DNA of 60,874 nucleotides, the filler included, from Dugesia japonica (lineage: Eukaryota): the NCBI GenBank assembly GCA_001938525.1. It is 6 parts of 6 records of this genome, joined end to end, with 100 filler letters (N's around TTAATTAATTAA, not from the genome) between each part and the next. Parts side by side here need not be neighbours in the genome. Positions count along the whole stretch, not along the records: positions 49,990 to 60,874 come from MQRL01451386.1; 5 more parts are not named here. One strand, 5' to 3'. A model generated the notes under the pieces. That model did no database searches. It was not told where the DNA came from and worked only from the letters and a program-made list of their open reading frames with translations. A program made the position numbers and the translations under genes. Positions 15,701 through 59,054 of the stretch are shown one piece after another (position 1 is the first letter of the stretch; every line of letters begins with the position of its first letter).

Positions 15701-15974
15701 CACTATATTTTGTTCTCTGGCATATTCTATTAATACTAATTTACCGCCAGTTGTTCCCATTTCAATATGTTTTCTCCAAGATTTACCAATATATAATTTC
15801 TTTGAAATCAGCATCTTTTCGAACATTTTATCATACATTTTTAGTGTTTTAATGCAAAAATCGAAACTTTATTTCTTTAAAGAGAATTAAAATTCTTTTT
15901 AATAACAAAAATCACGTGATTGGCATGCCATGGATATCCTTTTTTCTGGTTTTCAATGGTACCCCAAATTTACC

Positions 15975-16128
15975 ATTACTATTAATATTATTATTATTAA
16001 TATTATTATTAATATTATTATTAATATTATTATTAATATTATTATTAATATTANNNNNNNNNNNNNNNNNNNNNNNNNNNNNNNNNNNNNNNNNNNNNNN
16101 NNNTAATATTATTATTAATATTATTATT
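15975..16128. repeat. Low-complexity (TAATATTATTAT)n tandem repeat running into gaps
   Basis: 12-bp unit repeated directly. Confidence 0.9.
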
Positions 16129-17627: not shown

Positions 17628-17759
17628 ATAAATATCAAAATATTGAATTATGAATATTTGATAAATATTCAAATATTGAATTATGAATATTTGATAAATA
17701 TTCAAATATTGAATTATGAATATTTGATAAATATTCGAATATTGAATTATGCATATTTG
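17628..17759. repeat. 33-bp minisatellite x4 (ATAAATATTCAAATATTGAATTATGAATATTTG)
   Basis: Four near-identical units; this explains the spurious NYEYLINIQIL ORF. Confidence 0.92.
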
Positions 17760-19871: not shown

Positions 19872-22800
19872 TTACAATGTATACTGCCCATATGTTAAAC
19901 TTAAATTTTTCTCTATTCATACTCGCTTATCATCCTTATTAGACAGCTACTTTCTTACTTTTGATAATGTAGAGCTCATGATTTTTCGATGTTATTCTAA
20001 ATAGCTCTACTGAGACCGTTTCATTATTATTATAACAGTCAAAGTATGACTGATGAGAAATGTCAGTGGTTTTTAATGTTGCATCCTAAGCTTTCATTAA
20101 TTCTTTCTCGCTAAGTAGGCTATAACACTTCGGTCTCAAAAATATCCATTCCTGATATTTCTTCCCTTTACTTATCCTTGAACTTTCCGATGACTGAATT
20201 TAAATTGTTGCTGTAAAGGGTATGGCTTGTGCTGTAATTAGACATATCTAATAGCTGATCCTTCATCATTAATCCGGTTAGTTTTTCCAAACTTATATTC
20301 ATCACTTCTAGGAAGAAACTATACGTATAGCTGGCTACTATATTTATCTTACAATTCTCTTCCTGTCTGTACATTTTCAACTCAAAGTACTTTAGTCGGT
20401 ACATTCTTAATTCTGATGGGTCTAGTGCAGTCTGTCCTATGTAGCTTGGTCGATCTAAACAAACAGTTTTTGTTCATTAAAACAGCTATTAGATCATCAT
20501 CAATTTTAGTTGTTTTTCTGAATACGGCTTTGGATGTATATGTCATCAATTTTTTAGCTAAATTACATAAGCACGGATTCATTCTTTTCTTGAAAGTTCG
20601 AAACTCTTTTACCATACAGGCTATTATTTAAAAGCTTATAATAATTCTTCTCCAACTCTGATTTACACCCTGATCTTAATTTAGTGTTAATATCTATATA
20701 TCGTATGAAAATAGATACCTCGCTGAATTTGACACCTCTGTGTATCTTTGTTATTTGTACACCCAACTGCAAATAAATTTGCAGCAATCTCCAGTGTATG
20801 AGATTATTTTCTTTTGGGTAATGAGTCAGCATTTATTTTTTCACCTTACTATATGGAGCACTTTGGTGTTCTGCTGCTACCGTTAAATCATACAGTTCAT
20901 CGTGGATTTCTGCTGGTATAACTATATATACCTCTAATGTGTATCTTTATAGTAATGAGTTAAGGTCCCCTGTTGTACATTCTTCCAAAGCGTCTTCTAA
21001 ATTTGAATAGACCCACTAAAAGTTCTTAAAGTACAACTTTTGACTTAATGCCCAACCATATAGATTGTTGACTTCGATATATAATAAATCGGTGTTTTCG
21101 TTACTAACAACATGATGTTTATTTACATAGTTAGCTCGCCTCTTATACCTCCTTAAAAAAGGTGTACATGTCATTATCGGTCAACAGTTCAATTGGCTCA
21201 TTTAACGACATCAATGCAGATTTCCAACTCATACTCGGGATATCAAAGATTGTTAATGGCTCTAAATTATTGTGTTCCAATGATTTATTTCTGAACTGTT
21301 GAAAGAAATCGGCTAACAGAAACACATTTAGTTTCAAACATAACAGCATATAATCTAATAGATTATTGCATTCTATTATAATCCACATTTCCAATGCCTT
21401 CTCATAATCTTGCTCACTAATTTCCTCCCATCTTAGTGGCATTGTTGTTTCAACCAAAATTTGCAAACTTGTTGCATAAATATAAGGAAATATCCCCTTT
21501 GACATTGTTATTCTGCTATCTTCATATTCATTTGTTGTCAAAGGTGTCTCTTACGGATTTGACTGCTGTCTCCAATGAAGAGTTAATAAATTGGTACACG
21601 TTAATAAATCTGATTGTAATTTCTTTCAGATGTCCAATGAAGCATAAGAATTTTCTGATGTTGTTGGTATGCATGATATGATCCAATATGGAAATTTATT
21701 TAATCCATACTTTTTTATGTGATAAAGGTAATATCCTTTCAAATTATGGAAGACTACTGGTAATTGATAATTGATTCTTCTGCTTAAATTACATTTATTA
21801 CAGGCTGCTCATATATACTTGCCTGTAAAATGGTCATGATCTCGAACTAAACTACTTAAAGGTATTTTTACACAAATGACATATTGTACTATGTTTAAAT
21901 TCCATTTCTTGGTCCGGGTTCATAATAAGTTTCTTTTTTCTTTAATATAATATAGATATACTATATTATTGCCAATTTCCTCCCCTACCTTAATAGAATA
22001 GCCAAGATACTATATATAAAACACTTATTGTCACTGTTCTGAATATTTAAAATTGCTTTTTTCCTATAAAGGTTGACTAGGGTAGGTATATAACTATGAC
22101 CAGATAATCTACTGATGTCTAATACTTTGATAATCTTAAAATTCATTTCCAGTATGTGACTCAGTATCCAACTTACCTGAGCTCGCTTCTTATAGCTATC
22201 TTCTCATTTAATTATTTTATTCCATCTTCGAAAAAGTATCTCTCAATGGAACAGCACGATTGAATAATTTGCAAGTTTTTGTTTTATCGTCTTTTTTAAA
22301 TTCCACATTGATCCAGAATTGGATCTTAACATTTTTTAATTCTTCAATAATTTTAAATAACTGCTCAATTAAGGATTTTGGTAAAATTATTTCTCTCGTA
22401 TTCCACCTTGAAACATTCATTTTAATATCTGGTGATATCTATATAAGTCACTTTCTACTATCACATCTTCATTGAAGAAGCCACCAACTTATGCTTCTTC
22501 TTCATCTTTAAAACTTTGCATAACATCTTCTTCATCCATTTCATGCATGATTTGAAAATTATCTCAAATATCTGAGGCTCCACCTTCATTTCTTCTTCTG
22601 AGATAACTATTTCATTTTATTTTCTTTAATGGGGTGCTATCGATCTCTTTATAATATCATCCTCAATAATTGTTTTTTATTTGTTGTAAACTGCCATAAG
22701 TGGTCTGCGTATAAATATTCGCCTATATCTATAGACCTACATGTTGGACATATGTAACACTTTTCCTCATAAACTCTGACCATAATATTTCTCCATAATA

Positions 22801-29769: not shown

Positions 29770-30480
29770 AATTACAGAGAGGTTATTGCCGAATGTATTT
29801 TGCAGAGGAGATAATATTGAGAAATTCATCAAGCGGTGTAAAAATTATTTTGAAGCTAAAAGCATCACCCAAATGAAATAACAGAAGAGATTAGTCTCTT
29901 GTTTGCTAGAAAAAGATTTTTTGGAAGAATATGCGAAGACGTTGAAAAACGTTGAAGGTTTTCAGGCTCGTTTACATGTGGCATTTAAGAAAGAGAAAGA
30001 TGTTATCAAAGAGTGTCAAGTTTATTTTAAAAAGGTTAAAAATTTAGTAAAAAGATTATTTAAAATAAAGATTTTACTAAGAAAAGAATGGTAGCAAAAA
30101 TGCTGGTATATTGATCAGATAAGAAAAATGTTGAAGAAAAAGTGACTTTGCGGAAACGAGAGAATATAAAAGAAATTGAAGAAACAATGAAATTAGTAGA
30201 TCAAGTAGAGAAAAACATAGATCAAGTTGATTGCTGGAGTAGAGTGCTGGAGTTGTCATAAAACAGGACATATAAGTCGAGATTGTCCAAATAAAAAACC
30301 AGCTAAATGTTTTTGACTGTAGAAAGGTTGGCAATATTAGAAAGTTATTTCAAGAAGTGAGGTGTAAACGATGTGGTAATGGCAGACATAGGACAGAAGA
30401 GTACTACACAAATTTGAAAATGAATAGAACAAGTGAGACATTACTGCAGAAAGATCAAGAAACTGATATAATCGAGAACA
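29770..30480 (+). pseudogene. gag: Gypsy gag with CCHC zinc knuckles
   Basis: CWSCHKTGHISRDC followed by two degenerate knuckles (CFDC..., CKRC...H). Confidence 0.85.
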
Positions 30481-30586
30481 TACGATTGAAGATGAAGATG
30501 TCAGTACAAACGATGGATATGAGGAAGTATATGAAAGTGATTCCAAAAGGCGGGGCTCCACCAGTAGAGGAGTTGGTTGAGTTGCA

Positions 30587-33500
30587 TTGATAAATGCAGT
30601 TAGTAATTATACTCAAAAAGTCGAAAAGTGGGATGATATAGGCAAATTTACAGAAAATGTTTACATGTTCTTAAAGAGGGAAAATTTTATGGATGAGAGA
30701 AAAATAGAATATGTTGAAACAGTTGAAGCAGAAAAGAAAACAAATACTTTGTATTATAAATTGCAAGGCAGACCAAGTGTTACGGTATCAATTCAAGAAA
30801 ATAACGTAAGATGTCTATTAGATACATGGACTAGAATTAACGTGATGAGTTTGAGTTTTGTTTTAATAAATTACGAGATGCTCATTTAGAAATGAATGAT
30901 GAAATATTGCGTTGTGCAAATAATATACACTTAAAATTGTTAGAAAAGTTAGAGCCGGAGTGATAATTGATGAAGTTTGCAAAGAAATTACTTTCTAAAT
31001 TGCTGAAAAAGTGACTCCAAATCTGATAGGAGGAATAGATGTGCAGAAGATCTTTAAATACCAGTTTAGGCAAAAGGTCGATAGCAAAACGTAGGAAAAA
31101 TTTGAAAATTACATTTGCAATATTGAAACAAAATTTGGAAGACAAATTAAAAAAGGAGAGCGATTGACAAGAGCCTTAAATACTTTGAAGGTTAAAGAGA
31201 ATCAGAGATTATTGAAAATGATTGGAAGTAAAAAAGATGTTTTTATGGCAGATAAATGGAATGTAGGACGCACTCATCTGACAAATCACAAAATAATCAC
31301 AAGTGATGAACAAATCAATGTAAAACCGTACAGGTAACCAATAAACCTAGAATCTAAAATTGAAGAAACTATCCAAAACCTTTTCAAGAATAATATTATC
31401 CGTAAATGGAACTCTCCATGTGTGTGTTTTGGAAAAAGGAATAGAAGGACATAAGAATATGCTTGGAATTTAGACAACTTAATGCAGTAACGAAAAGACA
31501 AGCCTTTCCGATGCTTAATGTCGATGAAATGCTGGAAAAGTTAGATGGAGCTAAATATAGATTTGCGTACTATCAAGTAGAGCTTGAAAAAGAATCTCAA
31601 AAATACGGCGTTTCAAACAAAGAATGAATAATATTGTTTTAAAAGAATGCCATTTGACATTGCAGCGGCACCAGAAACCTTTCATTAGATGCTGACAAAA
31701 GTGATAGGCAGAATCAATGGAACCATGATTTATCTTGATGACATTTTGATATTCACAAACAATAAAGATCAACACTATGAAATCATTGAAAAGGTATTGA
31801 TGGAAATAATGAACGCCGGTCTAAGAATAAATCCAGAAGTGTCAGTTTCTTCAACGCGAAATCAAGTTTCTTAGACACATAATTAGCAGAGATAGTGTTA
31901 GAACTGATCCGTCATAAATTGAAGCCATGAGAACATTTGGCAAACGTAACTGTGTGAAGAAGTTAAGAAGATTTTTGGGAATTTGTAATTATTACAAGAC
32001 GTTTATAGAAAATTACGCAAAAAGTCAAGGATTTTAGATAAGTTATGTAGCGAACCAAGCAACAAAACATTAGAATGGACAGATGAAATAAACGATACTT
32101 TTGATGTTCTGAAGAAATTTCTAAAAACTGCACAATATTGTGTTTTCCAAACATAAACAAAGAATTTATATTAGATTTATATGCCAGTTTCTATACAATT
32201 GGAGCAGTATTGTCACTGAGAGATAAAAAAGGAAGAGAAAAAGTTGTTGCCTATGGATCACACTCAATGACGAGTCATGTAAAGGCATATTGCATCACAC
32301 AAAAAGAGTTATTGGCTGTTTATTATTTCTGTATGCATTTCAAACATTACTTGTACGGTAGAAAATTTATTCTTAGAACAGAACACAAAGGTCTAACTTT
32401 CATGATGACGACGAAGAAACCAATTACGATGCAATTCCAGACATGGATTAATTATTTGAGCAATTTAGTTATGGTTTTAGAATATAGAAAAGAAATTCAA
32501 TATAGTAATGTTATCTAGACCAAGATGTGAGGTATGTGTACAATGTCAAATGTCACATAAAGAAGCTAGAAAAGGGAAGATTAAAAAAATAATACTGAAC
32601 ATAATTGAAAAGGAAAAAGTAGATCATATAAACATTTCCGAGGAAACATATTTAATCAATAAAATGAGAATTCCGGATGACAAGCTACATGAAACAATAG
32701 AAGAAATACATAAATTATTATGCCACGCTGGAGTTGAGAAGGTGCACGAATATATGAAAAACAAATACATTGCAAAGAATTTGTGGAGCCAAATACAGAA
32801 GATAATTCGTAGTTGTGATATTTGTCAGAAGATTAAAGTAATTAGAACATCAACTAAAGAGAAAACCAAGAGATTAGAAGCTACAATTTGTTTGAAATGA
32901 TATTCACAGATATATGTAGGCCTATGCGAGAAACAAGTGGATGGTAAAAATAAATTCTTAGAATAATCGACCAGTACAGTAAATATCTGGTTTTTATATC
33001 ATTGCCTAGACAAGACGAGAAAACAATACGAAAAGCTATTTTTGAAAAGTAGATATTGAGATTTGGAATTCCGAGAGAAATAAGATTAGATAAGATTAGA
33101 AACGTTTTTGAATCCAGAGTTATGAGAGAGTTTGCATTGAAGTTAGATATTAAACTTTGCGTTTCAAGTCCCTATCATCATAATGCAAACAGACAAATTT
33201 AGAAACAGTTCTGAACAATTCAAGATTTGATTAATGCAACACTTCAGGAAAAAAAGACAACAGATTAGGAAGATCTTTTACCGGAAATAGAAATTACAAT
33301 GAACTCAACAACACAGAAGACGACTGAAAAGAGCCCTGCTGAGAGCGTTTTTAAAAAGGAAAATTGCAGAGAAAAGCTGTACCAGTCAGACGTTTCAGAT
33401 AGAACTAAAGAAAACATTTCAGACGTGATTACTAAAGAAGAATTCAAAGTAGGCGATGTTGTACTCATCAAGGTAGAAACAAGAAACAAAAGTCAAGACA

Positions 33501-33604
33501 GATTTGAAAGACCTTATCGAATAATTGAGAAAATTCACAAAAGACGGTATTCAGTACAAAGAGAAAATAGACAGCGATTAGAAATAAATGTGGAAAAACT
33601 TTAA
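30587..33604 (+). pseudogene. pol: Gypsy pol (protease, RT, RNase H, integrase)
   Basis: CLLDT, RMPF, IYLDDIL, FLGICNYY, ASFYTIGAVLS, KELLAV, HKLLCHAG...CDIC, SPYHH. Confidence 0.92.
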
Positions 33605-33803: not shown

Positions 33804-34117
33804 CTTATTGTTATTATTTTTATTGTTTTTGTTATTATTAATACTATTATTNNNNNNNNNNNNNNNNNNNNNNNNNNNNNNNNNNNNNNNNNNNNNNNNN
33901 NNNNNNNNNNNNNNNNNNNNNNNNNNNNNNNNNNNNNNNNNNNNNNNNNNNNNNNNNNNNNNNNNNNNNNNNNNNNNNNNNNTATTATTAATCGTATTAT
34001 AATTATTAATATTATTATTATTTTAAATATTTCAATTACTTTCTTTTAAAAATAAAAAAAATTCTTTTTAATTTATACTGATTTTCTTAGTATAAAAATC
34101 TATACAAATACAATTGT

Positions 34118-34258
34118 GATTTCATTAAAATAAGATAAGGCTTCGATCAAAACAAAATAATAATTTGTTTTGATCGAAGCCTTATCTTATTTTAATGAAA
34201 TCTCAAATCCGATCAATGGTTAAGTCCAACAATTATTCTCACAATAATTGTAATTATA
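34118..34258 (+). mobile_element. Fold-back retro-insertion (Penelope pLTR-like family), copy A
   Basis: Perfect 39-bp-arm palindrome 34118-34202, conserved tail CGATCAATGGTTAAGTCCAAC..., and 12-bp TSD AAATACAATTGT (34106-34117 / 34259-34270). Confidence 0.8.
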
Positions 34259-36676
34259 AAATACAATTGTATTTATTTTCAGAAAAAAACGTTTATTTAA
34301 AAAAAAATTATTTTCAAACACATAAAATATATATTAATTTATATTTAAATGTTACTAATTATTTAATTCGAAAATTAAAGATTTCCTTTAAGATTTTTTC
34401 AAGAAAATGACAGAACACCTATTTTATCGATTTTTTCATATAAATATACACGAAACATACAATTAATAATTAATAATTTGAACTGAATAATTAATGATAA
34501 AATTAGAGTTGAATTTCTATTTATGCCAATATAAAGTGATATAAGGTATATTATATCTTAGTTTGTGGAATATAAAATAAATAAATATTTTAATATTTGT
34601 TTTCTCTAAATATAATATGGTAATTAAATAAATAATTAATATATTCTTATAAGTTCTATGTAAATACAATCTATAAGTGTATTAAACAAGTGTATAAATT
34701 AATAATGCCGACTCAAAATAAATATTTCATAATAATATAATTATTATAATTATTTTTTTAATTCTATAATTATTTAATTTCAATAATTATTATAATTATT
34801 AATATTATCTTTCAATACATTTCATTAATTCTAATTATTTTATCGGTTTCATATTTATATACCTAAAAAATTGATATTAACATTAATAATAAATATTAAT
34901 ATATAATAACAAAATATAATCAATATAATAATTATAATAATAATAACAATAATAGTAATAATAATAATAATATTAATAATAATAATATTAATATTATTAA
35001 TAATATTTATAATAAATGTCAAACTTAAAAATTAAAAATGTCATCGAAAAATGAAAAAAGTTAATTTCACATAGTTTTGGCATTCTATTAAAACAAAATA
35101 AATTTCTATTTTATTTACTTAAAGAATTTAACTGCATAAAATTCCTATTAAGCTGATTATTTCTGGTTGTACCATAAATGTCTTATGCTAACAACCGAAA
35201 AATAATTAGTTGATTATTTTTTCAACGTTTAATTAATCAAAGTATGTAGAATAAAATATTTTCATTAAAAGAATTTTTTATTATATAACAACTTTGTGAT
35301 TTATTTATAATTAAAAAAAATTAATAATTCCTACAGATTTTATAATTATTCTTTAAGTGAAAAAACTTTTAAAATAAATTCTTTAATTTCAAGTAAAATA
35401 ACTCGTTAAAATATTCATAAACCCTTTGATAATCAAGATCATGAAATGATCGCACGTAAAATTAAATTGATAGGTTTATTTAACGAGCGTAATTAATCGT
35501 TAAATTAATTAAAATTCTTTATTTGATAATTGAGTAAATTTTAATTTTTAATTAAATATTTAAAAAATTAAAACAAAAATAATTAATGAATTGGAAAAAA
35601 TAATAACATAATTTTAATAAATAAAATTACACTGTATGATTTCTTTATTATATCGGATATAAATTATACACAGGATAAAAATTCAATTTCTAACTGTAAA
35701 TAAATAAATGAATAAATATGCTAGAATTAAACGAAAAAAAAGTAATTAATTTTCTGTCAGTTTCATTAACGATATGAAGAATAAATACCATAAAATAAGA
35801 AAGTATTGTTTTATTTTGAAAACTGTAAAGCTTTAATGAAAATGAAAACTGACAAGTAAAACATTTGAAATGAAAACAGCTGGTTGGCACTTCTGTCAAT
35901 ATGTATTTCAAGACTTTTCTTAGATTTACAACTTTATTAAAGTATATTTATTTTATTTTTATTGTGTTTTTATTTGTTATAATTGATTGGCATATAATTA
36001 CTCTGTAATGCTTCAATGTCAATATTTATCTATTTATTAAGAGAACAATCATTCATCCGTAATTCGATGAGCGTAACGTATTAATAATTGTTTCCATAAA
36101 TATTCAACGATTCTCGACAATTTGTTAAAAATTAAAAGTAAATTCATTGATATGAAAAAATTAATTTTAATTACATAATATTTATTAATAAAACCAAATC
36201 CAATTTAAATAAACTAAAATAAAGAAATAATTTTACAAATTAATAACGTAAACAATTAATAATCAGTAGCGTTAAAATTAAATTGTAATTATAAATTTAT
36301 TAAAAAAATTCGATAATTTCACTGTAAATAAACAAAAACCGAAATAAATATTTTTTTTCTTCAAATAAATAATTATGAAACATTTTATGGAATTTATGAT
36401 TATTCTAATTAAATATTAGAAATTTATCAATTTAAAATTTATTGTACATTAAAATGTACAGAAATAAAAATTGAGAAATTCCTTTCAGATAAGTATAACA
36501 TTTCAAGAAAAGAGTACCATTGAGCTTAACGGTCCCTTGGGTACTCTCATGTTGTTTGAAAGGCGGTCATTTGAAAGTAAATTAGCATAAAATTTCATAA
36601 TTTATATCATATTGAAACTCTTGAGAATTGAAAACAATTTTTCGATAAACAAGTTAAGAAAAACTTTGTTAATATC

Positions 36677-39119: not shown

Positions 39120-41395
39120 TAGCAAACAATTCTTATACCGAAACCAGGTAAAAAAGGTCAATATGAAAAAATGTCATTATGAAGACCAATTGCACTACTC
39201 TCTATCATTTATTTGCTTTTATTTTAACAATACGACTAAGCTGCTGGGCAAATTATAACAATCTCAATCAGAAGGGATGTTCGGAATTTGAGGAGTGCAT
39301 TGAACACAACTCAGTTCTAACAGCTGATTTAGAGCACTCTAAATTTACTAAGAACCGTCCAATTGTCATTGCATGGTTTGACATAAAAGATGCTTTTGGT
39401 AGTGTTCTACACAGTTGCTTATGGGCATTGCTACAATATATTGGTGTTGAAATTGAATTTGTTAACATCCTAGAACTCCTATATTCTGATACATCTTCAT
39501 TTTATACTTGTAGTTCAATAATCACAATAAATATTCCGCTGTCCATTATCTATGATCCTATTTAATTTGGCAATCAATCCAGTTCTGCAATCAATTTCTG
39601 CATCCAACACAATACCATTTATGATAGAGTCATCATATGCGAATGATTTGGCACTCGTTGCAACTAATACTAAAGACCTTTATAAAATAATAGACATAGC
39701 AATATAAACTGCAAGAATCATTGGATTTGAATTTCTTCCTGATAAATGCGCTTATCTTCAACTAACTCAAACCAACTTCCCCAGCGAAATCTCTATAAAT
39801 GATAAGAAAATTAGAAAATTGGCCATAAAAGAAATCTATCAGTATCTAGGCGTTCATGTTGGAGACAGGAATTACCAAAGTCCTTATGAGACCATACAAC
39901 AAGTCATTGATGATTTAACAAAAATTGTTGATTCAAACTTACCAGGATAACAGAATCTAAAGGCATACAAAGTATTACTACATTCTAGACTCACATTTGC
40001 ATTCCAAACGCGCGAAATAAAAATTAGCACCCTAAGTCATACTCAGAATAATCCAAATGTCAGTAATAACAATATTCGTAATGTTTGATTCCAACTTAGA
40101 CGTATATTAAATCTTCCGAAACAATCTGAAATTCTTTACTTCTACAATTCAACCAAAAATGGAGGAGCTGCTTGCTTTGATATACTGGATGAATATCAAA
40201 CTCAATGTGTTGTGAAATACTTTAAATTTCTTACCTCAAGATGCATTTACACAAACAAAATCAATATAGACTTCTTATGTCTCGAAGCAAGTTCAGAAAT
40301 AAATAAACTAAACCCATCTCTAAATGAATGTCTGGAATGGATAAATGGTAAACAAACATTAAAAAATTCAAATTCAAAGAAAACGCACTTTCAGCGAATA
40401 AGAACTGCAATACAATTTTTCAAAAGGATTCATGATACAGATATATCGTTTAATGTACTTAATAAAAAAATAGTCCTTTATATGACAAACAAGACAAGAG
40501 GAAAGTATNTTATTACTCATACCTCCCGTAAAGAAATTTCAAATATCATTCACAACGTACTCTTTGATTCATACGCTGAAAAATAGAAAAAAAGCAAGGT
40601 GAGCAACCTGATATTCGCAGCCATTCAAATTAGCCCTATTAATAATAAAATGATTTTCAAAAGTGACCTCAATAACATTCAGTGGAATTTCATTCACAGT
40701 GCACGTACAAACTCTCTATAAATACGTGGAAGATCATTTTATGAAAAACAAAACTATCGGCGCTATTTTACTGGAAATGAATCCAATGAATCAGATGTTC
40801 TTCAAAAATCCAAAATGAATCAGGCAATAGCAACTGAAAGACATAATTCTTCCCTTGATATTATTGTCAGCAAAATTAAAACTACAAATGCTATTGTTGA
40901 GGTCTATAGAATAAATAACTATATTTTGGATTCTAGGGAAAGAGTGGATATTACAGAAAATAATGTTGAAAAAAGACGATATATTTAATTGATGTCAAAT
41001 GCCGAAAAGAATTTTGAAGAGTAACAAAAGAAATTTAGAAAAATATGATATACTAAAAAATAAAGTGAAAATAGCAAAGCCTGATTTTAAAATAGATTTA
41101 AATACTGGCATAATTGGATCACTTGGCTCAATTCAAACCCATTCAAATTCTAGAAAAGATTATTGAAAACAAAAACATAATAAAATGAATATTAAAAGAT
41201 TTCTCTAAATCAAACATAGCCTACTCAGCAGAAATATGGAAGTTCCACAAAACTGGTATTAGAAACAACAAAACAACTTCCAATATTGAAGATTAGTATA
41301 TAAAGAATTGAAGAAACGTGTGTGGGTTCTATGTAGAACCAAAAACAAGACTGTTTGTATATTCAAACTTGTTATATTTAATAAATTTTATATAT
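39120..41395 (+). mobile_element. 5'-truncated non-LTR retrotransposon with C-terminal restriction-like endonuclease (R2/NeSL/R4 group)
   Basis: ILIPKPGK, RPIAL, QKG...CIEH, AWFDIKDAFGSV, LFNLAINP, YANDL (YADD), YQYLGV, RHN, LIDVKC, IIGSLGS; 3' UTR with AATAAA. Confidence 0.88.
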
Positions 41396-41397
41396 AT

Positions 41398-43280
41398 AAT
41401 AATAAAAGTTAATTAATTATAACAAATTTGAAAATTTCAAACAAAGATTATGTACTGCGTAAAACAAACCATCAAATGCTATTTAAAATATCATTTGTCT
41501 ATGTAGAAATATCTGATTTCTCTACAAACATTTTTTTGGAATAACTGTTTTACCAAAAACTTTTATTATCCGTATTTACCAGATTTTGGAAGAATATAAG
41601 CTGTTGAAACGGCACATTCTGTTAATAGTTTATTTACTCTGTCTTTCCTTATACCAATATTTCTCAGAGTTATATTGGTTTTCACTGATCCGAGAGATCC
41701 AAATATTCATGTAAATAATTGAACATAATAATGAGCTCTTGCTGTTTGAATCTTACTTTTTAAATTTTCATGTTTAACCAGGTTGCTTTCATTAATCAAT
41801 TGAAAATTCTTTTCCAAGTCTAATGAACATTTGATGACTATTAGATGTATTGGTTAAATTCAAAGTCTCGCAAATCTCCATAAATTGTTTATTGATTATT
41901 ACAAGTCTTTCATTAAAATGAAAAAATGATGAAGAACAATTCACAATATTCAAACAAATAATCTGAGAAATCTTAATAAAATATTTTTCAAAAATATTGA
42001 TTTTTTTAATTCCAAAATACTTTTATTTTACCTGTATCTTTCATTATTTTTAAACCTAAGTTTATAAAATAATTTTTATAATTTTATAATTTAAAATAAT
42101 ATAACATATCGACTTTAATTTTAAAATACCTTTATTTTACATATATATTTAATTATTTTTAAACATAAANNNNNNNNNNNNNNNNNNNNNNNNNNNNNNN
42201 NNNNNNNNNNNNNNNNNNNTAATTTTCCATAATATAATATATAGAATTTATTCAATTAACTTGTATTTCTTTGTATAAATTTTGTATTAATTTGTATTAA
42301 TTTTGTATTAGTATTAATTTGTAATGCTCAAGTCTGGCGATTACAGGCAATAGACTATTTTTTTAAGCATTCATTGTCTTTTAGTTGGTAAACGTTGATT
42401 AAATTTACAACTTTTAAGAACATGAGACATAATTTCCTCGGCAATGACGATAAAGATGATTGTGTTGATTTATGATAAATGCACGAGCAAATGTAGACAG
42501 GTTATTTAGATGAGCCCTGGGAATGAAGTTCCATTGAAATTCATTGAGTTTGCCATTATAAATTAATTTGTTGATAATTGGGCAAATTTAAATAGATGAT
42601 ATGAGTATAATACTATGATTGTTCCATTTCCATTTTTCAAGATATGCGTCAAACAATTCATTGTGAATAACACTAGCAAGTTCTTGTTGAAATGTTGCTT
42701 TCAGAATATATGTACCTAGTATATTTCTGATTATTCGTAATGCCAATTTTTCATCAATTATTTCAAATGATATCCAAATTTTATAAAAATTTCTTTCAAA
42801 TATTCCAATCCATTTCTTTAACAGTAAGACTGAGTCTTTTTTGACTTTGAGTTGGTATTTGTTTGTCCACCATTAATCCATTGGAAGCATTTTTGAAAAG
42901 TTGGATTTGATTTATTAATACGAGTACTTGCTACAAAACATAGTGAATCTAGGTTTATTTTTCTAGTGCATGAACATTTTGAAGTTAAAAGTCTGAAATA
43001 TTGAACTGTGATTCGAGTGTGATATTCATCAAGCATATTAATACAGGCTGCTCCATCATTTGCTATAGAATTGTAGAAGTATAATGTTTCTGATTGATGA
43101 AGAAGATTCAATATTGGTCTGAGTTACTCTATTAGTTTAGAAGTATTATTCTACTTAGAATTTTTATTTCCTTGTCAATATCTGAGCGCACTACATTTGA
43201 TTTCACACGTTCGAAAAGAAAAAATTAATCTTGAGTGTAAGATTATTTTGTAAGCTTTCAGTTTATTCCGGGTAATTACT
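41398..43280 (-). mobile_element. Second RLE non-LTR copy, tail-to-tail with the first and interrupted at about 41853-42330
   Basis: ORF 42818-43111 aligns with 40100-40400. QWNFIP.A, RHC...SHVL..C, IKCSLD and IFGSLGS are present. Confidence 0.85.
41853..42169 (+). repeat. Dispersed non-coding repeat (MITE-like), copy 1
   Basis: About 315 bp, nearly identical to the reverse complement of 45895-46205; a diverged third copy starts near 49425. Confidence 0.85.
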
Positions 43281-45419: not shown

Positions 45420-46420
45420 ACATTAGAATTAAGCGGTTTTCTCTATTTTCATCGCACAAATTGTCCTCTGTTCATAACATAAGAAATGTATACTAGGTTA
45501 CGATGTATCATACGTCTGATGGTTGGCTCTGATAACTGCAGTTGCCTGGAAATGTTTCTCATTGATGTGTCAGGATTTTCATTAACGACACAACGAACTT
45601 GTTGAACAAAATCGTCATTCCTAACTGTGAGATCCAGTCATGAATTTCAAATGTCTGAGATTTTCTAATTTTTATATAATATTAAAATTGGTTTTTTTTG
45701 AAACTTTTAAAATATAAAACAGGTTTTTTAAAATACAAATTAATTGAATAAATTCTTTATATTATATTTTGCAAAATTATGAAATTATAAAAATTATTTG
45801 GTAAACTTATGTTAAAAAATTAATTGTAAAAGTATTTAATAATTAAAATTATTTTACATTATGCAAAATTTTAAAATTATAATAATTATTTTGTAAATTT
45901 AGGTTAAAAAATAATTAAATATATATGTAAAATAAAGGTATTTTAAAATTAAAGTCGATATGTTAGATTATGTTAAATTATAAATATTATTTTTAAAATG
46001 AGGTTTAAAAATAATGAAAGATACAGGTAAAATAAAAGTATTTTGGAATTAAAAAAATCAATATTTTTGAAAAATATTTTATTAAGATTTCTCAGATTAT
46101 TTGTTTAAATATTGTGAATTGTTCTTCATCATTTTTTCATTTTAACGAAAGACTTGTAATAATCAATAAACAATTTATGGAGACTTGTGAGACTTTGAAT
46201 TTAACTAATTCTGACAATGTCTGAACTGGAATAGTTCTTTTTTGGATATAGAAGACCTCTTCGAGCGCGGCCGTAATTTTTTTAAAATTTTAAACACAAA
46301 AGATCGGGCAACATTGAGATAATTTGCAATTTCATAATCATTGTGTTTCGAGTCTAATACAACAGCTATTTTATTAAATTTAGAAAGTAAAATAGTTGAG
46401 CAAGTCAATGGTCAATTCAC
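45420..46420 (-). pseudogene. Tc1/mariner-superfamily transposase N-terminal relic split by the repeat
   Basis: HTH EIANYLNVARSFVFK (46205-46408) continues as VRNDDFVQQV...NPDTSMRNISRQLQLSEPTIRR...GQF (45430-45630). Confidence 0.7.
45640..46205 (-). repeat. Dispersed non-coding repeat (MITE-like), copy 2
   Basis: Inverted match to 41853-42169; sits inside the Tc1/mariner relic. Confidence 0.8.
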
Positions 46421-46599: not shown

Positions 46600-48260
46600 A
46601 CTCATACATTGTCTGGCGCAATCATCCGTGATTTATTCAATGCGATGAAAATTTACAAAATTCAAAATCATATCAAATTTATAAGTGAATGTAAAAGAAG
46701 AAAATTAATACCATTTGGTTTGATAACTAAAACAAACTCAAGAATACTTTTTAGTGTCATCTATCTAAACGTCTATGTTTTCCATAAATAACTGTTCTTC
46801 GTAAAAGACTCTATAGTAAACGTAATTATCTGATAAAAAATAAACCACTACCATTTCCTCTAAATAAAGAAGATGAAGAAGCATATGGAAAATTTAAAAA
46901 CATTTATGATCTCAACAAACAAAAGAAATTGAAAACTCAACTTTCTGAGAAAACTAAAACATAAGAAAAAATCAAAATGAAAATAAATTTACACTCAGAT
47001 GTTATAAGCAATACAACTGTTCTTCCTTTCCAAAATTTAACGGAATATACATTTACTGACAGACAAATGATTGAAGCTGCCATTTACATTCTCAAATGCC
47101 AATGGTACAGACTAGAAAACACAACATATGAAATATCAGATAATTCTTCAGTTTTTTTTTATCAAAGTGGTAGTACAAACAAACATTCAGACGGGTAATA
47201 GCAACGTACAATTATCCTATTACAGAAATTGATAACAATATAGAGGAACTCAGAAATAAACTTTTAAAAACTTACAAATATAACAAGAATATCAAACCTA
47301 AAAGTAATGAGAACAAAATTATCAAAGAAATAAAGAATTTGAAACCAGTTATCATCGCTCCAACGGATAAAACAAATAAATTGGTAGCTTTGCCTGAACA
47401 GACGTACAAGGATTTCTTCTCTAAACATCTGAATAATTATGAGACCATCACTCATAAAAGAGTACCAATTACTGAAGAGAATAAATTCAATAAAGAATTG
47501 ATTAAATTTGCAGAGAAACATGAAGACCGAAAGAAATCTTTTTTTTTAACAGTATAATGTCATGAACCCGTTCCGTCATCTATGTACTGTGTTCTTAAAG
47601 ATTATAAAACAACAATGAAAGGAAAACTTTTGGTCAATGCTTCCGATAATCCATCTACTTTATTATGCAAAAATATGGCAGATTATTTGAGACCACAATT
47701 AAGTTTTATTCCACACATTTGAAAAATAGTTGAATTTGTTGAACGAATTAAAAATTATGATTGAAAGAACGATGATCGATTTGGTTCATTGGATGTAACA
47801 AATCTTTATGGACCGATTTCCATTGAAGGACCTGAAAATGTCATCGATATTGTAAGTGATTTCTTTGAAAGATACAAAGAACGTACAGATATTCTTGAAA
47901 TCACCAAAAATAATTTCATATCTCTTATCAATTTGTGATCTATTCTTTGACAGCATTTTTATCGGTGAACAACATTTTAAACAATAAAATGGTCTTGCAA
48001 TGGGTAACAATTTGTCTCCTATTTTAAGAATATTTTTTATGAAACATGCAGAACCATCCGTACAAGAATTAAAGAACATCTCAAACAGAAAGAAAGTGAA
48101 GTCTTCAGACATTTTCGAAACAAACATAATATTTTACCAGAAAATCATCATATTACATGGAAAACATTAAAAACAGGCTACATTTCTACACTTCATAGAA
48201 AAAAACATGAACAAATTTGATTAAAGAGGATAAACCTAAGATCAATGTGGTTTTCAACAA
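46600..48260 (+). mobile_element. Penelope-like retroelement, degenerate and internally deleted
   Basis: HIKFISECKRRKLIPFGL, IIAPTDKTNKLV, PSSMYCVLKDYK, SLDVTNLY, KQ.NGLAMGNNLSPIL. The sequence then jumps to an endonuclease-like C-terminus with no YVDD motif. Confidence 0.85.
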
Positions 48261-48512
48261 TATGATAATTAAAATTTTAAAAAATTAGTATCAGTATCAA
48301 TTAAATTTTAATTTTATCGATTAAATTTTAAAAACATTTTTTAGAAAAAAACGAAATAGTATTGATAAAATTTTCTTTGTTTCCGATAAATCAAAATATT
48401 TTGTTATGTTTGAAATAAATTTTTCAACATCATCGCCTATTCTGAAAGTTCCAGAATAAGTTGCTTCCTTTAGCAAATCCAATGATTCTCTGGTCACTAT
48501 GATAACACTATA

Positions 48513-50509: not shown

Positions 50510-50681
50510 AATTTAGTAAGTATAACAAATTTGAATATAAAAATAGTCTTTTTTTGGTTCTACATGGAACCCACACACGTTTCTTCCATTTATTATATAC
50601 TTATCTTCAATATTGGAAATCATCTTTTTGTTCCTAATACTAGGTTTGTGGAACTTCGCTATTTCTTCTGAGTAGGCTATG
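50510..50681 (-). mobile_element. 3'-end fragment of the RLE non-LTR family
   Basis: Reverse complement matches 41215-41385, including the GGTTC(T/C)ATGTAGAACC hairpin. Confidence 0.85.
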
Positions 50682-51615: not shown

Positions 51616-53095
51616 CAGGTAACCCTCCTATAACAGAGGTGACAAGTTCCTATAATATGAAGTGTTATGTGAAACCGTGCTATAGGAGACTAGAAGCTAG
51701 TATAAAAAGAGTGGTAACTTTCCAAAAATATTTCAATGACATAGAAGAAACTTTATTTTTGTTAAGAATAAGAAAACAAATAAAAATACACTTAAATATA
51801 TAAAAAATAAATAAATAAAAAAAACAAACAAAAATTGGCATAAATACATATAAATTTAATTTATTAATTTATTCGTCATCGCTGCTCAATCCTATTAAAC
51901 GGGAACGTTTGTTCGGTTGAATAACATCATCTTTACTTCCTGAAATATTTTCTGCATTTGTATTTTACTCGCCTTCTGATATCTTTAAAAAATCCGTAAT
52001 CTAGCTTTGTTTCCTTGTTCTTTCAAGGTTGTTGTAAATTTCTTAATATGGTGATAAGCTATTTTGCAATTCTTTTTTGAATTTTCGGCTTCTTTCAGCA
52101 CAAGGGTCTGCATTCAAGAAAAGTAATTCCAAGTTTTTGGCCAAGCCTGATCCTTCCTGTAATTTTTTTAATTTAAAATTATTAACTTCAGTATCTTCAT
52201 CAGAGCTAGAATCGATTTCATTCACTAAGATAGGTATGCCATTTCCACCAAATCTGCTTCGCCAACTTCTTCTTTTCACTAATCATTCTTGAACATCCTC
52301 AATAGCCATATCCACAATTCCTTCTCCGTCGAACGACCTATAAAGTTCTATTATGCCACAAATTTCTTTTTCTTCTAATTTATGCACATTTTGTATCTCA
52401 ACTGCTGCTTGTCATACCTTTTTCCAACATGGATTTAATGTTGTACTTTGCAGTTCTTTCAGAGATAAGGATATGATTTCGATGCAGTGCTTCATGGAAA
52501 TTTGCTTCCAAGCTTCCTTTACATCAATAGATTTTTAATAATTTATATATAGAGTCCATTGTAATGACCTTCTTATGTAATAAGTTTTAAAGGTATAAAT
52601 AATACCTTGATCCATTGGCTGGAGCAATGAAGTGGTATTATGAGGTAGAAACGCTATTTGAACGTTAGGATGACATAAATCTTGCGGGTGGACCCGGCGC
52701 ATTATCTATTAGTAATAGCACCTTGAAGTCGAAATTATTGTGCTTTAAATAAATATCTACCTCTGGGATAAAACAATTTAAAAACCAACTTCTAAATAGA
52801 TCTACAGTTACCCAAGCTTTTGAATTTACTTTCCAATATACCGGTAAAGCGTTTTTATTTATGCATTTGAATTTACGTGGGTTCAAAGATCTATAAATGA
52901 TCATGTGTTTTGTCATATAATCCTCCGAAGCATTACTATACAAAAGTAACGTTACACAATCTTTTGATACTTTAAACCCGGGTGAAATGTTTTCATTTTT
53001 TGATATAAATGTGCTATTGGGCATTTTTGTCCACCAAAGCCCAGTTTCATCGGCATTAAAACCTTGTTTTGATGTGTATCCTTGCTCCTCAATTA
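51616..53095 (-). mobile_element. Tigger/pogo transposon relic (TIGD1-like DDE transposase)
   Basis: FNADETGLWW.KMP, KAWVT..LF..WF...[32 protein letters not shown]; terminus TA|CAGGTAACCCTCC at 51616. Confidence 0.9.
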
Positions 53096-53284
53096 TGAAT
53101 TAACATGAATTAATATAAATGTTAAATACACCAAAATCTACTATCCGTAGACATTAATTGAAGCTTGGATAAATAAACTGTTTTGATATATGAATTCCAC
53201 ACGATTTAATTGAAAAGAATTTGTTAGAATCGCATCGACATCTGCCCCTCGCTATATAAAAGCTAAGAAGCGACACAAGCAGAA

Positions 53285-55380: not shown

Positions 55381-56477
55381 TACTTTATAAATACTTTATA
55401 TCTTTTAAAATCCATACATTTTAATTGCAAAATAGGAATTGTTATTTAATAAAGTTTTGTACTCAATTTCCACCAAACTACCCCAATTTTTCTATGTTAG
55501 TCATTATTCTCATCGTACATAGATTATTACTATTAATTTAATATTAACAATCATTAGTCATTATGCCACTGAGTTTATTTTTAAACCAGTATTAAAATTG
55601 TATATAAACTATTATTGAGTTGCTGTAATATTTAAAATGTTATCTTCTAAAATTTTACGTAATAAACATTTGAAATTATCATTATATTTCGGGAAAAAAT
55701 CATTGTCAAGTAATAATTTAGGATTTTACGAAAATGAAATGTACAAAGCTTATTTGGAAAATGCATAAAATGTTCATTATGTAATATATTACATTTATTT
55801 TATTAATATTTCATTTTTTATTTTCAAATTTTAGACCTGGAATAATTTTTTCACTAGTAAGAAACAAATGAACATTAATACAAGTTTTGATTCAAATTCT
55901 TTAAGTGATTACAATTCAATATATCAAATGATAGAAAATTATTGGATAATTCATTTTATTTTTTTTATCATTTTATGAAAAGTAATTGAAATAAATTTGT
56001 CTATGATTATATAACGTTGAAAAATGTTCAATTACTACAAAGATAGATCAAAGATATTAAAATAATTAATTTGAATGAAAATCATAAGAACTTTAGTATT
56101 TATTTATTTAAAAAGTCAGTGATATTACTCACTAATTAGACAGTAGGTTATTTTATAAATTTAAAGTTTTCATATCTTGAAAATACTTTTGTCGACTGTT
56201 AAAGTTCAAAATTAAAATATTTTAAATGTTTATTATCTATCCGTATAATAATAAATCTACAATACGAAAACTTTTCCTTATTTATTTGAACTTTATCTTT
56301 AATAATCAATGACAATATTTTGTTTAAATTATGAAGAAATTAAAAATCTTATGTGCAAAAATTCTACTTTACATCTATGATCAGCATAAAACATTATACA
56401 CAGATCCAATTTTAGAATTCATTTAAAATAAAAGCTTCGATCACAAAATTTTTTTATTTCTTGTTGTTTTGAGATTG

Positions 56478-56510
56478 ATTCCATATTTCGACTTTGTCTT
56501 CGTCAGGAAT
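56478..56510 (-). ncRNA. Antisense copy of the minimal hammerhead motif (cleavage triplet AUG, predicted inactive)
   Basis: ATTC-CTGACGAAGACAAAGTCGAAA-TATG-GAAT on the minus strand. Confidence 0.55.
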
Positions 56511-56525
56511 TGACTTTTTTGGCTA

Positions 56526-56558
56526 ATTCCTGACGAAGACAAAGTCGAAATATCGAAT
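56526..56558 (+). ncRNA. Minimal type I hammerhead ribozyme motif
   Basis: ATTC-CTGACGA-A-GACaaaGTC-GAAA-TATC-GAAT: core boxes, 3-bp stem II, palindromic loop-less stem III, 4-bp stem I, predicted AUC cleavage after 56554. Confidence 0.65.
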
Positions 56559-56899
56559 CAATCTCAAAACAACAGAAAAATAAAAAAAATTTTTGATCGA
56601 AGCTTTTATTTTAAATGAATTCTAAAAAACGATCAATGGTTACGTCCAACAATTATTCTTGCAATAATTGGAATTGTAGATCCAATTTTGTTTGCATTAA
56701 TCTATAATATTTTTTAACCAATACAAATTTTGTTCATTTAAAATATAATACATATATTGCAGAATAATAATAAAAATAGTTTTAAAATATTGTTTCTGTG
56801 GTGTATTTGTTAAAATAAAATGTTTTATAATCTAACTATATAAGTTGTTAAATATAAGTAAGAATAATTAAGAGTTGATATTCAAAAATGTGTATTATA

Positions 56900-58183
56900 T
56901 TGTTAGGCAATACTGTTGTTAAGAGGAACATGCTTTATGCCAAGAAATATTTTCAAAGTGACAAAGATTGATCCTACCTTAAAAACAGTGAGTAATTTTT
57001 CTGCGAAACAACATTTCCTCCTGTAGTTTGTGGTCTAAATGAAATATCTGACCAACGCCATAAACAAAGCTTCATTCCCAAGTAACGTAGAATCATAAAT
57101 TTGCAATGAAAATTTAGTGGCTCGCAAGTTTGTAACTACTTGCTCTACCACATTTACTGCCATTTTATCAATACGTCTTTAAACAAATGTGTACTTAGTG
57201 GTAAAAGTTGAGCACTTAGCTTGGATCCTGGAACATCACAGTTCTATTAATTTCTTTAAATGCTGGTAAGATGGGTTCTTTGACAATGGTATGAGGTTTT
57301 CCACACTTTGCCATGAGTTCCAAAACATGGTACGGTGCAAAAGTCCGTTACTCCTTTTATGTTACTTTTGTGAAACATTATGGTAATTTGTTTTCGTTCC
57401 TTGAATTGCTTATGCAGAATTTTAAAATAATCCACTGGCTTATCCTTTTTGTCTGAGTGCATAAAATTTTAATGTGCTTGGTGGCTTCATAGTCTCATTT
57501 GAATATGTGTGTTTACAAATTAGGCACATTGATATATGCTTGCAATTAAGAGCCTTAACAAATCCATATGAGAAATAGTCAAACAAATACTGTCTGCAAC
57601 GCTTCCTATTTGATGAAATGTCTTCATTCAATCCTGGGGATAACCATATGCAAATAAATGTATTGTAAAGTATTTAAGTCGATAAGCAAGCACATTTCCT
57701 ACTCACAGTGTGCTGTTGATACACAAATTACTGATAAAATCAAAAGACAAAATGTGAAAACTCAAAAATAGCGGTTGCACTGTCTGTACTTTGTAAGATG
57801 AGTAAGTGAATGACTACTCTAGAATGTTGTAGTGTAAGTTGTCTTAAATTTCTGTTTGTATTACATGCATTATTAGTAACAGAAAATTTGCGAGTACGTG
57901 TGCATGCACATGTAGCATATGCTATATACAGCTGGATTAAGATATTAGGACAACTCAGCTAAGTTGATTAGTTGTTGGTTATGGTGAATGGTGCTTGGCT
58001 TATGTGAATAAGTGTTTGTATGTACTAATATACAAGTTACTAGTTACATCTGAGTACAGGCTGCAGATAAATTGTCAAAAGTCTAATTTCCACATATACA
58101 CAGAGCGCCCACTCACTGCCCACTTTCTTCTTAGCGCCCACTTAAACTTTTTATAACGCCCACTAGTTATGGTCCAACCACTG
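56900..58183 (-). mobile_element. hAT-Buster (ZBED5/SCAND3-like) transposon 5' part
   Basis: RQY..DY.SYGF, MCLIC...SNETMKP, KPVDYFK, GKPHTI.KELILPA, RRIDKMA, FSLQ..DST. Terminus CAGTGGTT at 58183 with GTGGGCG subterminal repeats. Confidence 0.88.
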
Positions 58184-58209: not shown

Positions 58210-58600
58210 TTACCCATTATTCAAAGCATGTTACTATCCGATCGATAAAAGGATCGTAGATATTTCGGAGAAGAAATAATAAGTAGACTTCAAAAGCCGA
58301 CTTTTATTTTTCACTCAGGTCATGCAGCACCCATTTGTCAAGGTTTTTCACTTTTTTTAATTGTTTGAACTGATTCAGAATGGCAACATGACTAATAATT
58401 AACTCTTGGGTAAGCAGTCAAATAGTTGTATTGAATCTGCCTTAACCAAATCGTTTAATTTTTCATTATTTACTGAAGATAGACATTATAACGTCTAAAA
58501 TTTCGAGCGCTCATTTATCGTCCCTGACTGAGTTCGCGATTGATATTTCGACGTTCCTATCCAGCCTTGTAGTCCAGTTTGTACTCTTAAAGTTAAATGA
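58210..58600 (-). pseudogene. mariner transposase relic (N-terminal part)
   Basis: KVKNLDKWVLHDLS (WVPHEL-like), LLRN..DPFIDRIVTC.E. Confidence 0.75.
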
Positions 58601-58672
58601 CACACATTTGATTTTTTCCCTATTTGAAATCTTCTATTGAAATGGCGAAATATTTTGAAATAATAAAACAAA

Positions 58673-58797
58673 TTCATTAAAATAAAAGCTTCGAACATAT
58701 TTGTTATTGTTTTTGCTCGTAGCTTTTATTTTAATAAATTCTGAAAAACGTTCAATGGTTACTTCCGACAATTATTCTCGCAATAATTGTAATTGTA
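58673..58797 (+). mobile_element. Fold-back retro-insertion family, copy C (diverged)
   Basis: Short imperfect palindrome TTCATTAAAATAAAAGCTTCG...AGCTTTTATTTTAATAAA, the same tail, and a 15-bp near-TSD AAAT(A/T)ATAAAACAAA. Confidence 0.75.
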
Positions 58798-59054
58798 AAA
58801 TTATAAAACAAACACGAAATTAATACAGAAATTTATAATGTTAATAAAAAATATTTCACTGTCTTACATTCTTGTATTAAAAATGACTTAAAAATTCTTT
58901 TTTTTGAAAAAATCAGTTTTTCTACATTTACAAAAATTATACTTTGCAAATATTTAATTGGAAACATGTACTTCAACATATTCTATGATATAGTTAAAGA
59001 CAGATTGACTCAAAGTACTTATAGTTATACATTTCCATCATTTTATGGAAATGA

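What the first reader, a model, noticed from the sequence alone, without database searches (positions are those of the whole stretch)
56402..56689. Rod-like fold-back insertion with a hammerhead ribozyme core on both strands
Seen: a ~100-bp-arm palindrome, each arm holding CTGACGA-A-GACaaaGTC-GAAA-TAT(C/G) closed by ATTC/GAAT, followed by a ~50-nt unpaired tail and an exact 12-bp TSD. The plus-strand copy has a cleavable AUC triplet and the minus-strand copy has AUG. Known: Penelope-like elements carry minimal hammerheads with very short palindromic stem III that act as dimers, and they insert as an inverted pLTR plus a direct pLTR with a 3' tail. Inference: this is a non-coding, ribozyme-bearing unit mobilised by a Penelope RT. 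Its transcript would be a long dsRNA rod (siRNA precursor or retrozyme-like RNA) in which the ribozyme fold competes with the hairpin.
Basis: partly seen in the sequence, partly recalled or inferred. Interest (0 to 1): 0.75.

Follow-up and report, generated by a model that had tools for sequence, protein, structure and literature searches.

The report
Fold-back Penelope retrotransposon end insertion
This hairpin-shaped 288-base insertion is a short head-to-head double copy of the end of a Penelope-type jumping gene, carrying a minimal hammerhead-ribozyme motif and the first codons of the jumping gene's protein; it belongs to a very abundant family, follows an insertion pattern already described, and is likely an inert by-product of copying rather than a new ribozyme RNA.

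Summary
In detail: arms 98/103 identical, a 50-nt tail, an exact 12-bp TSD, and a minimal type I hammerhead motif (AUC on +, AUG on −) that 200 shuffles never gave. Two shorter copies in the window share the architecture and both end points. The tail is not non-coding. It encodes 14 codons matching the N-terminus of an 843-aa RT/GIY-YIG Penelope-like (PLE) protein, found independently through a decayed PLE in the window. Two related PLEs show the same order: hammerhead, ATG, end. About 32,000 contigs per DNA run match; hundreds share the 3′ end, and other copies join the arms at different points. This is the published inverted pLTR + direct pLTR + tail product, with no ORF body. Likely mechanism (inferred): two cDNAs primed at opposite target nicks from the two known RT start sites. 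In a transcript of this locus the rod is predicted to mask the ribozyme (48 kcal/mol). Two RNA runs showed no cleavage ends and almost no reads from the flanks. The scan noted this pattern before in two other genomes. New member of a known kind; low interest.

The parts
56402..56413 (.). Left target-site duplication (12 bp)
   Evidence: Exact repeat of 56678-56689
56414..56520 (-). Inverted arm: copy of the PLE end running from just upstream of the hammerhead to about 50 nt short of the 3' end (no tail)
   Evidence: 98/103 identical to the direct arm; 263 and 260 contigs leave the stretch behind 56519 with unlike flanks
56478..56510 (-). Hammerhead motif with G at position 17 (AUG; not a cleavable triplet by established knowledge)
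   Evidence: at 56482, 64% of X2 contig depth gives A17 and 12% gives C17
56521..56524 (.). 4-nt junction peculiar to this copy
   Evidence: Depth about 2,900 at 56521-56522 against 528,000 at 56534 in X2
56525..56627 (+). Direct arm: hammerhead plus 5' leader of the PLE ORF
   Evidence: same order in related PLEs L001 and L002
56526..56558 (+). Minimal type I hammerhead motif: 4-bp stem I, extra A after A9, 3-bp stem II with 3-nt loop, palindromic AUAU stem III without loop, AUC triplet; predicted cut after 56554
   Evidence: Sequence, descriptor; activity untested
56628..56677 (+). Tail; 56636-56677 are the first 14 codons of the PLE ORF (ATG at 56636)
   Evidence: Matches P0002 residues 2-14 at E 3.6e-5, 10 of 13 identical; translation
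56650..56670 (+). 8-bp hairpin in the tail ending 7 nt before the 3' end; candidate RT-start signal (inferred)
   Evidence: Same hairpin predicted in 3 of 3 window copies, but z = -0.1, -2.5, -0.9, so weak
56678..56689 (.). Right target-site duplication
   Evidence: 435 and 440 contigs leave the stretch here with unlike flanks
34106..34270 (+). Second family copy: short fold-back without hammerhead, tail, exact 12-bp TSD
   Evidence: arms 37/37 identical
58658..58812 (+). Third family copy: short, more diverged fold-back without hammerhead, tail, 15-bp TSD with one mismatch
   Evidence: arms 25/32 identical
46609..48261 (+). Decayed RT/GIY-YIG PLE ORF (stops, frameshifts, internal deletion of about 240 codons); it led to P0002. 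No recognisable pLTR or tail was found on it
   Evidence: tblastn to P0002, 44-77% identity per segment

Best explanation
This is a target-site-duplicated insertion of two head-to-head copies of the hammerhead-to-ORF-start end of a Penelope-like retrotransposon, likely made when the element's protein nicked both DNA strands 12 bases apart and likely primed one cDNA from each nick. Shown: the architecture; the tail encodes the ORF start; three window copies share both end points; the family is very abundant and joins its arms at varied points. Inferred from the published anole PLE biochemistry: the direct arm was primed at the downstream RT start site (end of the tail) and the inverted arm at the upstream site about 50 nt earlier. 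Both cDNAs ran toward the RNA 5' end just upstream of the hammerhead, or stopped early, and were joined end to end. Inferred: both came from RNA of the same source locus. Predicted: in any read-through transcript the rod masks the hammerhead, so this copy is likely an inert by-product; the ribozyme would matter only in the parent PLE RNA.
For: Tail-ORF link: the first 25 residues of P0002 hit the three tails best of all window frames (E 1e-10, 2e-9, 4e-5; next hit 0.03), and P0002 was found with a different query, 47174-47554. At three tail places most contigs carry letters giving P0002's K, R and C, and the C codon splits 51/46 between two synonymous letters (rows 56643, 56660, 56671). Related PLEs L001 and L002 show stop codon, 28-29 nt, minimal hammerhead with compensatory stem changes, 55-56 nt, ATG, and part ways 26 nt into the ORF. 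3' ends of 3 of 3 window copies fall within 1 nt of each other and inverted-arm ends within about 8 nt. Either arm can be the longer one: 14 of 15 listed joints join a full inverted arm to a direct arm cut at 56578-56613, 1 of 15 the reverse, which fits two separate priming events. Arms within an insertion are more alike (97%, 100%) than between insertions (70-85%) in 2 of 3 copies. Literature: PMC11167929 (both strands cut and extended, two RT start sites bounding the tail), PMC3846280 and PMC8557442 (inverted pLTR, tail coding the ORF start, TSD).
Against: No DNA of an autonomous element of this exact family was seen: the link rests on a 13-17-residue match to a protein of unnamed origin, and on relatives at 33% identity. 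No pLTR was detected on the window's own decayed PLE (scores 28-39, no better than reverse-strand controls at 35-39). The third copy's arms (78%) are no more alike than between copies. The tail (50-54 nt) is longer than the 30-40 nt in print. Two-ended priming has not been shown for this family. One search listed only 15 of 250 joints, 40 of 147 letter differences and 24 of 989 loose ends, and no empty-site joint was among those listed.
Confidence: 0.75

Rival explanations
1. Same PLE origin, but the inverted arm arises by self-priming (snap-back) or template jumping, possibly on an antisense template, as proposed in PMC3846280, not by priming at a second target nick.
For: Arms of one insertion share rare letters, as copying one from the other would give; published proposal for head-to-head junction palindromes.
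Against: The inverted arm carries family sequence upstream of 56525 that the direct arm lacks, and in 14 of 15 listed joints it is 50-90 nt longer at the 5' side, while the tail is only on the direct arm. Neither arm can be a plain copy of the other.
Confidence: 0.15
2. One reading: a self-propagating non-autonomous, retrozyme-like unit of about 160 nt (or the whole rod) that is transcribed, processed by its hammerhead and mobilised in trans, with the rod feeding small-RNA pathways.
For: Very high abundance and a shared 5' boundary at 56519-56520 in 230-263 contigs per row; listed differences in the hammerhead fall only on free positions (5 of the 40 rows shown lie in the two motifs: N7, loop II, N17); family RNA reads exist on both strands (70 and 2,220 reads).
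Against: No tandem copies on one strand here; junctions vary; 97% and 93% of the RNA reads run on into unlike sequence, as expected of copies inside host transcripts; no pile of read ends (table 6); stems I and II have pairing probability at most 0.02 in the isolated arm. The shared 5' boundary is also what cDNA running off a pLTR transcription start would give (inference).
Confidence: 0.08
3. A MITE or foldback DNA transposon whose inverted repeats happen to hold a hammerhead-like motif.
For: Long inverted repeats, short size, high copy number, a TSD.
Against: The right repeat ends 50 nt inside the element, TSD lengths differ (12, 12, 15), and the tail encodes a PLE N-terminus.
Confidence: 0.02

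Closest known systems
Inverted pLTR + direct pLTR + tail insertions of canonical EN+ Penelope-like elements (Adineta vaga Pen2/Pen3, PMC3846280; general scheme, PMC8557442)
   Same: Head-to-head arms, tail on one arm only, tail and pLTR carrying the first codons of the ORF, TSD, hammerhead in the pLTR.
   Different: No ORF body or second direct pLTR between the ends; tail 50-54 nt rather than 30-40; TSD 12-15 bp rather than the 8-10 bp in the A. vaga passages; far more abundant.
Minimal hammerheads of metazoan PLEs (Cervera and de la Peña 2014, PMC4209133)
   Same: Core boxes, extra nucleotide between A9 and G10.1, G10.1-C11.1 pair, palindromic 15.2/16.2, 4-5-bp helix I. That paper already reports pairs of motifs 100-700 bp apart on opposite strands.
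   Different: Helix II is 3 bp, not the 7-8 bp of the Schistosoma motifs; the two cores lie only about 24 nt apart.
PAc Poseidon of Anolis carolinensis (PMC11167929)
   Same: Hammerhead near the ORF start; genomic ends at two fixed sites inside the ORF start that bound the tail; AT-rich targets (flanks 81-84% AT); no RNA reads ending at the cut site.
   Different: Here the ATG lies 82 nt after the cut site and the 3' end is 42 nt into the ORF; in PAc the ATG lies inside the ribozyme and RT starts 111-118 nt in.
Non-LTR retrozymes (PMC7229834; bioRxiv 10.64898/2026.07.22.740005)
   Same: Short, ORF-less, type I hammerhead, related to PLE pLTRs, long TSD.
   Different: Retrozymes are head-to-tail tandems with hammerheads on one strand that yield circular RNAs; this is a head-to-head pair with a minimal motif.

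Membership tests
EN+ Penelope-like element (insertion product) | Parent ORF with RT and C-terminal GIY-YIG | tested here: met
   Met by the linked protein P0002, not by the insertion, which has only 14 codons: RVT_1 E 7e-7 (at cut-off), GIY-YIG E 2.8e-4 (21.6 bits, cut-off 22.6); 8 of 9 and 7 of 9 relatives match these families; tail link
EN+ Penelope-like element (insertion product) | pLTR with hammerhead just upstream of the ORF start | tested here: met
   Cut site 56554, ATG 56636; same order in 2 of 14 related loci, the only ones in which the scan found a hammerhead
EN+ Penelope-like element (insertion product) | Inverted 5'-truncated copy adjoining the direct copy; tail on one end only | tested here: met
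   3 of 3 window copies
EN+ Penelope-like element (insertion product) | Target-site duplication | tested here: met
   12/12, 12/12 and 14/15; empty site not seen
EN+ Penelope-like element (insertion product) | Full-length copy of this family joining hammerhead, tail and RT ORF in one DNA | not testable with these tools
   No genome is held; the contig behind P0002 could not be read
Minimal type I hammerhead (PLE type) | CUGANGA and GAAA boxes, extra nucleotide after A9, G10.1-C11.1, palindromic stem III, helix I of 4-5 bp | tested here: met
   features as listed in PMC4209133
Minimal type I hammerhead (PLE type) | NUH cleavage triplet | tested here: met
   Met on + (AUC); not met on - (AUG)
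Minimal type I hammerhead (PLE type) | Core conserved among copies while free positions vary | tested here: inconclusive
   The 5 listed differences in the motifs are all at N7, loop II or N17, but 107 of 147 rows were not shown and matches were selected at >=80% likeness
Minimal type I hammerhead (PLE type) | Self-cleavage as a dimer | not testable with these tools
   Needs an in vitro assay; no read-end pile in two RNA-seq runs, a weak test
Non-LTR retrozyme | Head-to-tail tandem with two or more hammerheads on one strand | tested here: not met
   One motif per strand in the window
Non-LTR retrozyme | Abundant circular or monomer RNA | not testable with these tools
   Only a cDNA and an oligo-dT library were laid
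MITE / foldback DNA transposon | Inverted repeats flush with both ends and a fixed TSD length | tested here: not met
   50-nt tail beyond the right repeat; TSD 12, 12, 15

The most novel reading that the evidence does not exclude
This genome holds thousands or more of ORF-less fold-backs in which one PLE ribonucleoprotein primes two cDNAs, one at each target nick, from its two RT start sites on same-source RNA. That would give one mechanism for the inverted pLTR and the tail of all Penelope-like elements, testable at scale here; part of the family may also have become a self-amplifying 160-nt hammerhead SINE.
Probability: 0.4. Interest if true: 0.5.

Novelty: new member of a known kind. Interest (0 to 1): 0.22.

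Why it matters
As a single feature it is ordinary: a known type of Penelope insertion. Its use is as material. How PLEs make inverted pLTRs and tails is not settled (self-priming was proposed in 2013; two internal RT start sites and cutting of both strands were shown in 2024). A family this abundant, with fixed outer ends and variable inner junctions, would let one test two-ended priming by counting junctions in one genome. It also warns annotators that such hairpins score as microRNA-like or MITE-like but are retrotransposon ends.

Tried and rejected
Reading the arm and tail as a GIY-YIG C-terminus (frame of P0001, which looked like the motif as I recall it): rejected. No hit at E <= 10 among 3 candidates, 0 Pfam families, alignment score 27 to P0002, while another frame matches the N-terminus. 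microRNA precursor: all Rfam hits below gathering score. Whole-genome census: no genome held; public contigs were used instead, which give no copy number. pLTR on the decayed PLE at 46.6-48.3 kb: not found. Hammerhead-like strings at 18977-18997 and 58543-58552: fail the descriptor and lie within chance counts. Tail hairpin: significant in 1 of 3 copies only. Taxon: an Atlas search with a putative host exon gave only scores under 0.9; not determined. My guess of a planarian is from memory and no call supports it; a literature search on that guess gave nothing useful. Run search: no RNA holder listed. Filled site in other samples: contigs cross the junctions in X4 (left) and X2 (right) but with fewer than 31 letters inside, so not counted. 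Lünse et al. 2017 is not held. Look-ups of earlier findings by place and by sequence gave nothing relevant.

Full report
Setting. The window is AT-rich (GC 16-32% per 2 kb) and full of decayed mobile elements: RT-RNase H and integrase zinc-finger, DDE_1 and DNA polymerase B fragments (5 of 25 ORF pieces reached a Pfam cut-off-level score or E < 1e-3). It looks like an animal genome; the taxon was not determined. No whole genome is held.

Observation. The palindrome, tail and TSD are as described. The arms are identical in 98 of 103 columns, the rod folds at z = -22 and the 12-bp TSD is exact. A structural descriptor for a minimal type I hammerhead finds only the two arms in the window and nothing in 200 shuffles; it was written after seeing the motif. 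The + motif has AUC (cut predicted after 56554), the - motif AUG. No Rfam hammerhead model matched.

Family in the window. Two more copies lie at 34106-34270 and 58658-58812. Each is a shorter fold-back without the hammerhead, with the same tail and its own TSD (12/12 and 14/15). The 3' ends agree within 1 nt and the ends of the inverted arms within about 8 nt. Over the shared segment, arms within an insertion are 32/33 and 37/37 identical in two copies against 70-85% between copies; the third copy's arms are 25/32.

Link to a Penelope ORF. A decayed ORF piece at 47174-47554 retrieved one protein among 729 candidates, P0002 (843 aa, 65% identical), with RT and GIY-YIG domains. Searched back against the window, P0002 maps the decayed PLE at 46609-48261, and its residues 2-18 hit the three tails (whole protein: E 0.005, 0.009, 0.93; first 25 residues: 1e-10, 2e-9, 4e-5, next best 0.03). 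So the last 42 nt of the element are the first 14 codons of a PLE ORF, ATG at 56636. A metagenome scan gave 14 related PLE loci; 2 of the 14 show a hammerhead. In both it follows the stop by 28-29 nt, has the extra A and a palindromic loop-less stem III with different, compensating stem letters, and is followed 55-56 nt later by an ATG; the two loci part ways 26 nt into that frame. This is the same anatomy as our direct arm.

Genome-wide view from public runs (4 of the 24 runs listed were laid). 32,540 and 31,873 contigs of two DNA runs matched 751 bases at >=80%. Summed depth was 2.1-3.0 million over the tail against 5-10 in the quietest flank bins; the tool warns this is no copy number, so I claim only 'very abundant'. 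435 and 440 contigs leave the stretch at 56678 and 230-263 at 56519-56520, with unrelated flanks (agreement 0.44-0.52): shared 3' and 5' boundaries. Of 250 joints, 15 are listed; 14 join a full inverted arm to a direct arm starting at 56578-56613 and one does the reverse. Of 147 letter differences, 40 are listed; the 5 inside the two hammerhead motifs are at N7, loop II and N17, where A (64%) and C (12%) dominate, so the G of this left arm is a minority letter. RNA: 70 and 2,220 reads, both orientations; 97% and 93% run on into unlike sequence; 0 of 70 and 14 of 2,220 are >=99% alike; flank depth 0-3; no place where many molecules begin or end. These libraries are a weak test of cleavage.

Mechanism. 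Shown: architecture, fixed outer ends, variable inner junctions, coding origin of the tail. From print: the anole PLE protein cuts and extends both strands, starts RT at two sites inside the ORF start that bound the tail, does not need hammerhead cleavage in vitro, and is predicted to be a dimer (PMC11167929; main text read). Inferred: staggered nicks 12 nt apart, one cDNA from each, the two start sites giving the long and the short arm, joined at their far ends with 4 extra bases here. I put the identity as a PLE end product at about 0.93 and the two-ended priming at about 0.75-0.8 given that. The self-priming model of PMC3846280 (passages) fits less well because each arm can hold sequence the other lacks. 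Function of this copy: forcing the hammerhead costs 48.4 kcal/mol against the rod, and even the isolated arm pairs stems I and II with probability at most 0.02 (thermodynamic models ignore dimers and protein help). Likely inert.

Comparison with print. The inverted pLTR, the tail carrying the first ORF codons and the TSD are described in PMC3846280 (passages) and PMC8557442 (passages). Minimal hammerheads with these exact features, and pairs on opposite strands, are in PMC4209133 (parts 1-2 of 4 read). Dimer cleavage (Lünse et al.) I saw only through a review (PMC6765202, passages). Retrozymes are tandem (PMC7229834, passages; bioRxiv 10.64898/2026.07.22.740005, part 1 of 5). I did not see an explicit two-nick account of the inverted pLTR in the passages read or in the listings of searches; supplements were not read, so this is not a claim of absence. 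Two earlier notes of this scan reached the same reading on other genomes; they are AI notes, not support.

Verdict. Observation confirmed; interpretation partly supported. It works like, and is, a Penelope-like terminal insertion product; it fails the retrozyme and MITE tests. New member of a known kind, interest 0.22.

Noticed in passing
window 46609-48261 (+): Decayed RT/GIY-YIG Penelope-like ORF with stops, frameshifts and an internal deletion (P0002 residues 531-769 missing).
   Followed up: yes
window 56650-56670, 34.23-34.25 kb, 58.77-58.79 kb: The tail hairpin overlaps the ORF's first codons; the three copies differ mainly in its loop. Candidate RT-start signal, weak by shuffling.
   Followed up: partly
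L001 2376-2482, L002 2035-2142: Related PLE 3' ends with minimal hammerheads and a TCGAA-containing box 22 nt after the cut site; a similar box lies 42 nt after it in our element.
   Followed up: partly
window 41849-42068 and 45990-46209: 220-nt inverted pair, 96% complementary, 3,921 nt apart; another of 131 nt at 41215-41345 and 50551-50681.
   Followed up: no
window about 2700-4300, 10170-10720, 20170-22470: Several decayed DNA polymerase B fragments (DNA_pol_B_2 E 1.5e-8 at 20566-20832); Polinton-like by recall.
   Followed up: no
window about 29900-33600: Decayed LTR-retrotransposon pol region (RT_RNaseH, Integrase_H2C2).
   Followed up: no
window 39167-40985 and 42591-43123: Two decayed ORF sets that resemble non-LTR RT elements by recall; 0 Pfam hits for the two pieces scanned.
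   Followed up: no
window about 56900-58000 (-) and 52668-53099 (-): DNA-transposon remnants: the first looks hAT-like by recall (0 Pfam hits) and is repeated in the runs (depth rises at 56852); the second hits DDE_1.
   Followed up: no
window 18977-18997 (+): Hammerhead-like boxes directly before a TAA microsatellite; fails the stem tests, probably chance or a relic.
   Followed up: partly
window 17624-17762: Four tandem copies of a 33-nt unit.
   Followed up: no
window 12301-18584 (-): Possible host-gene exons; best Atlas lead strumpellin-like at 0.85, below the reliable range.
   Followed up: partly
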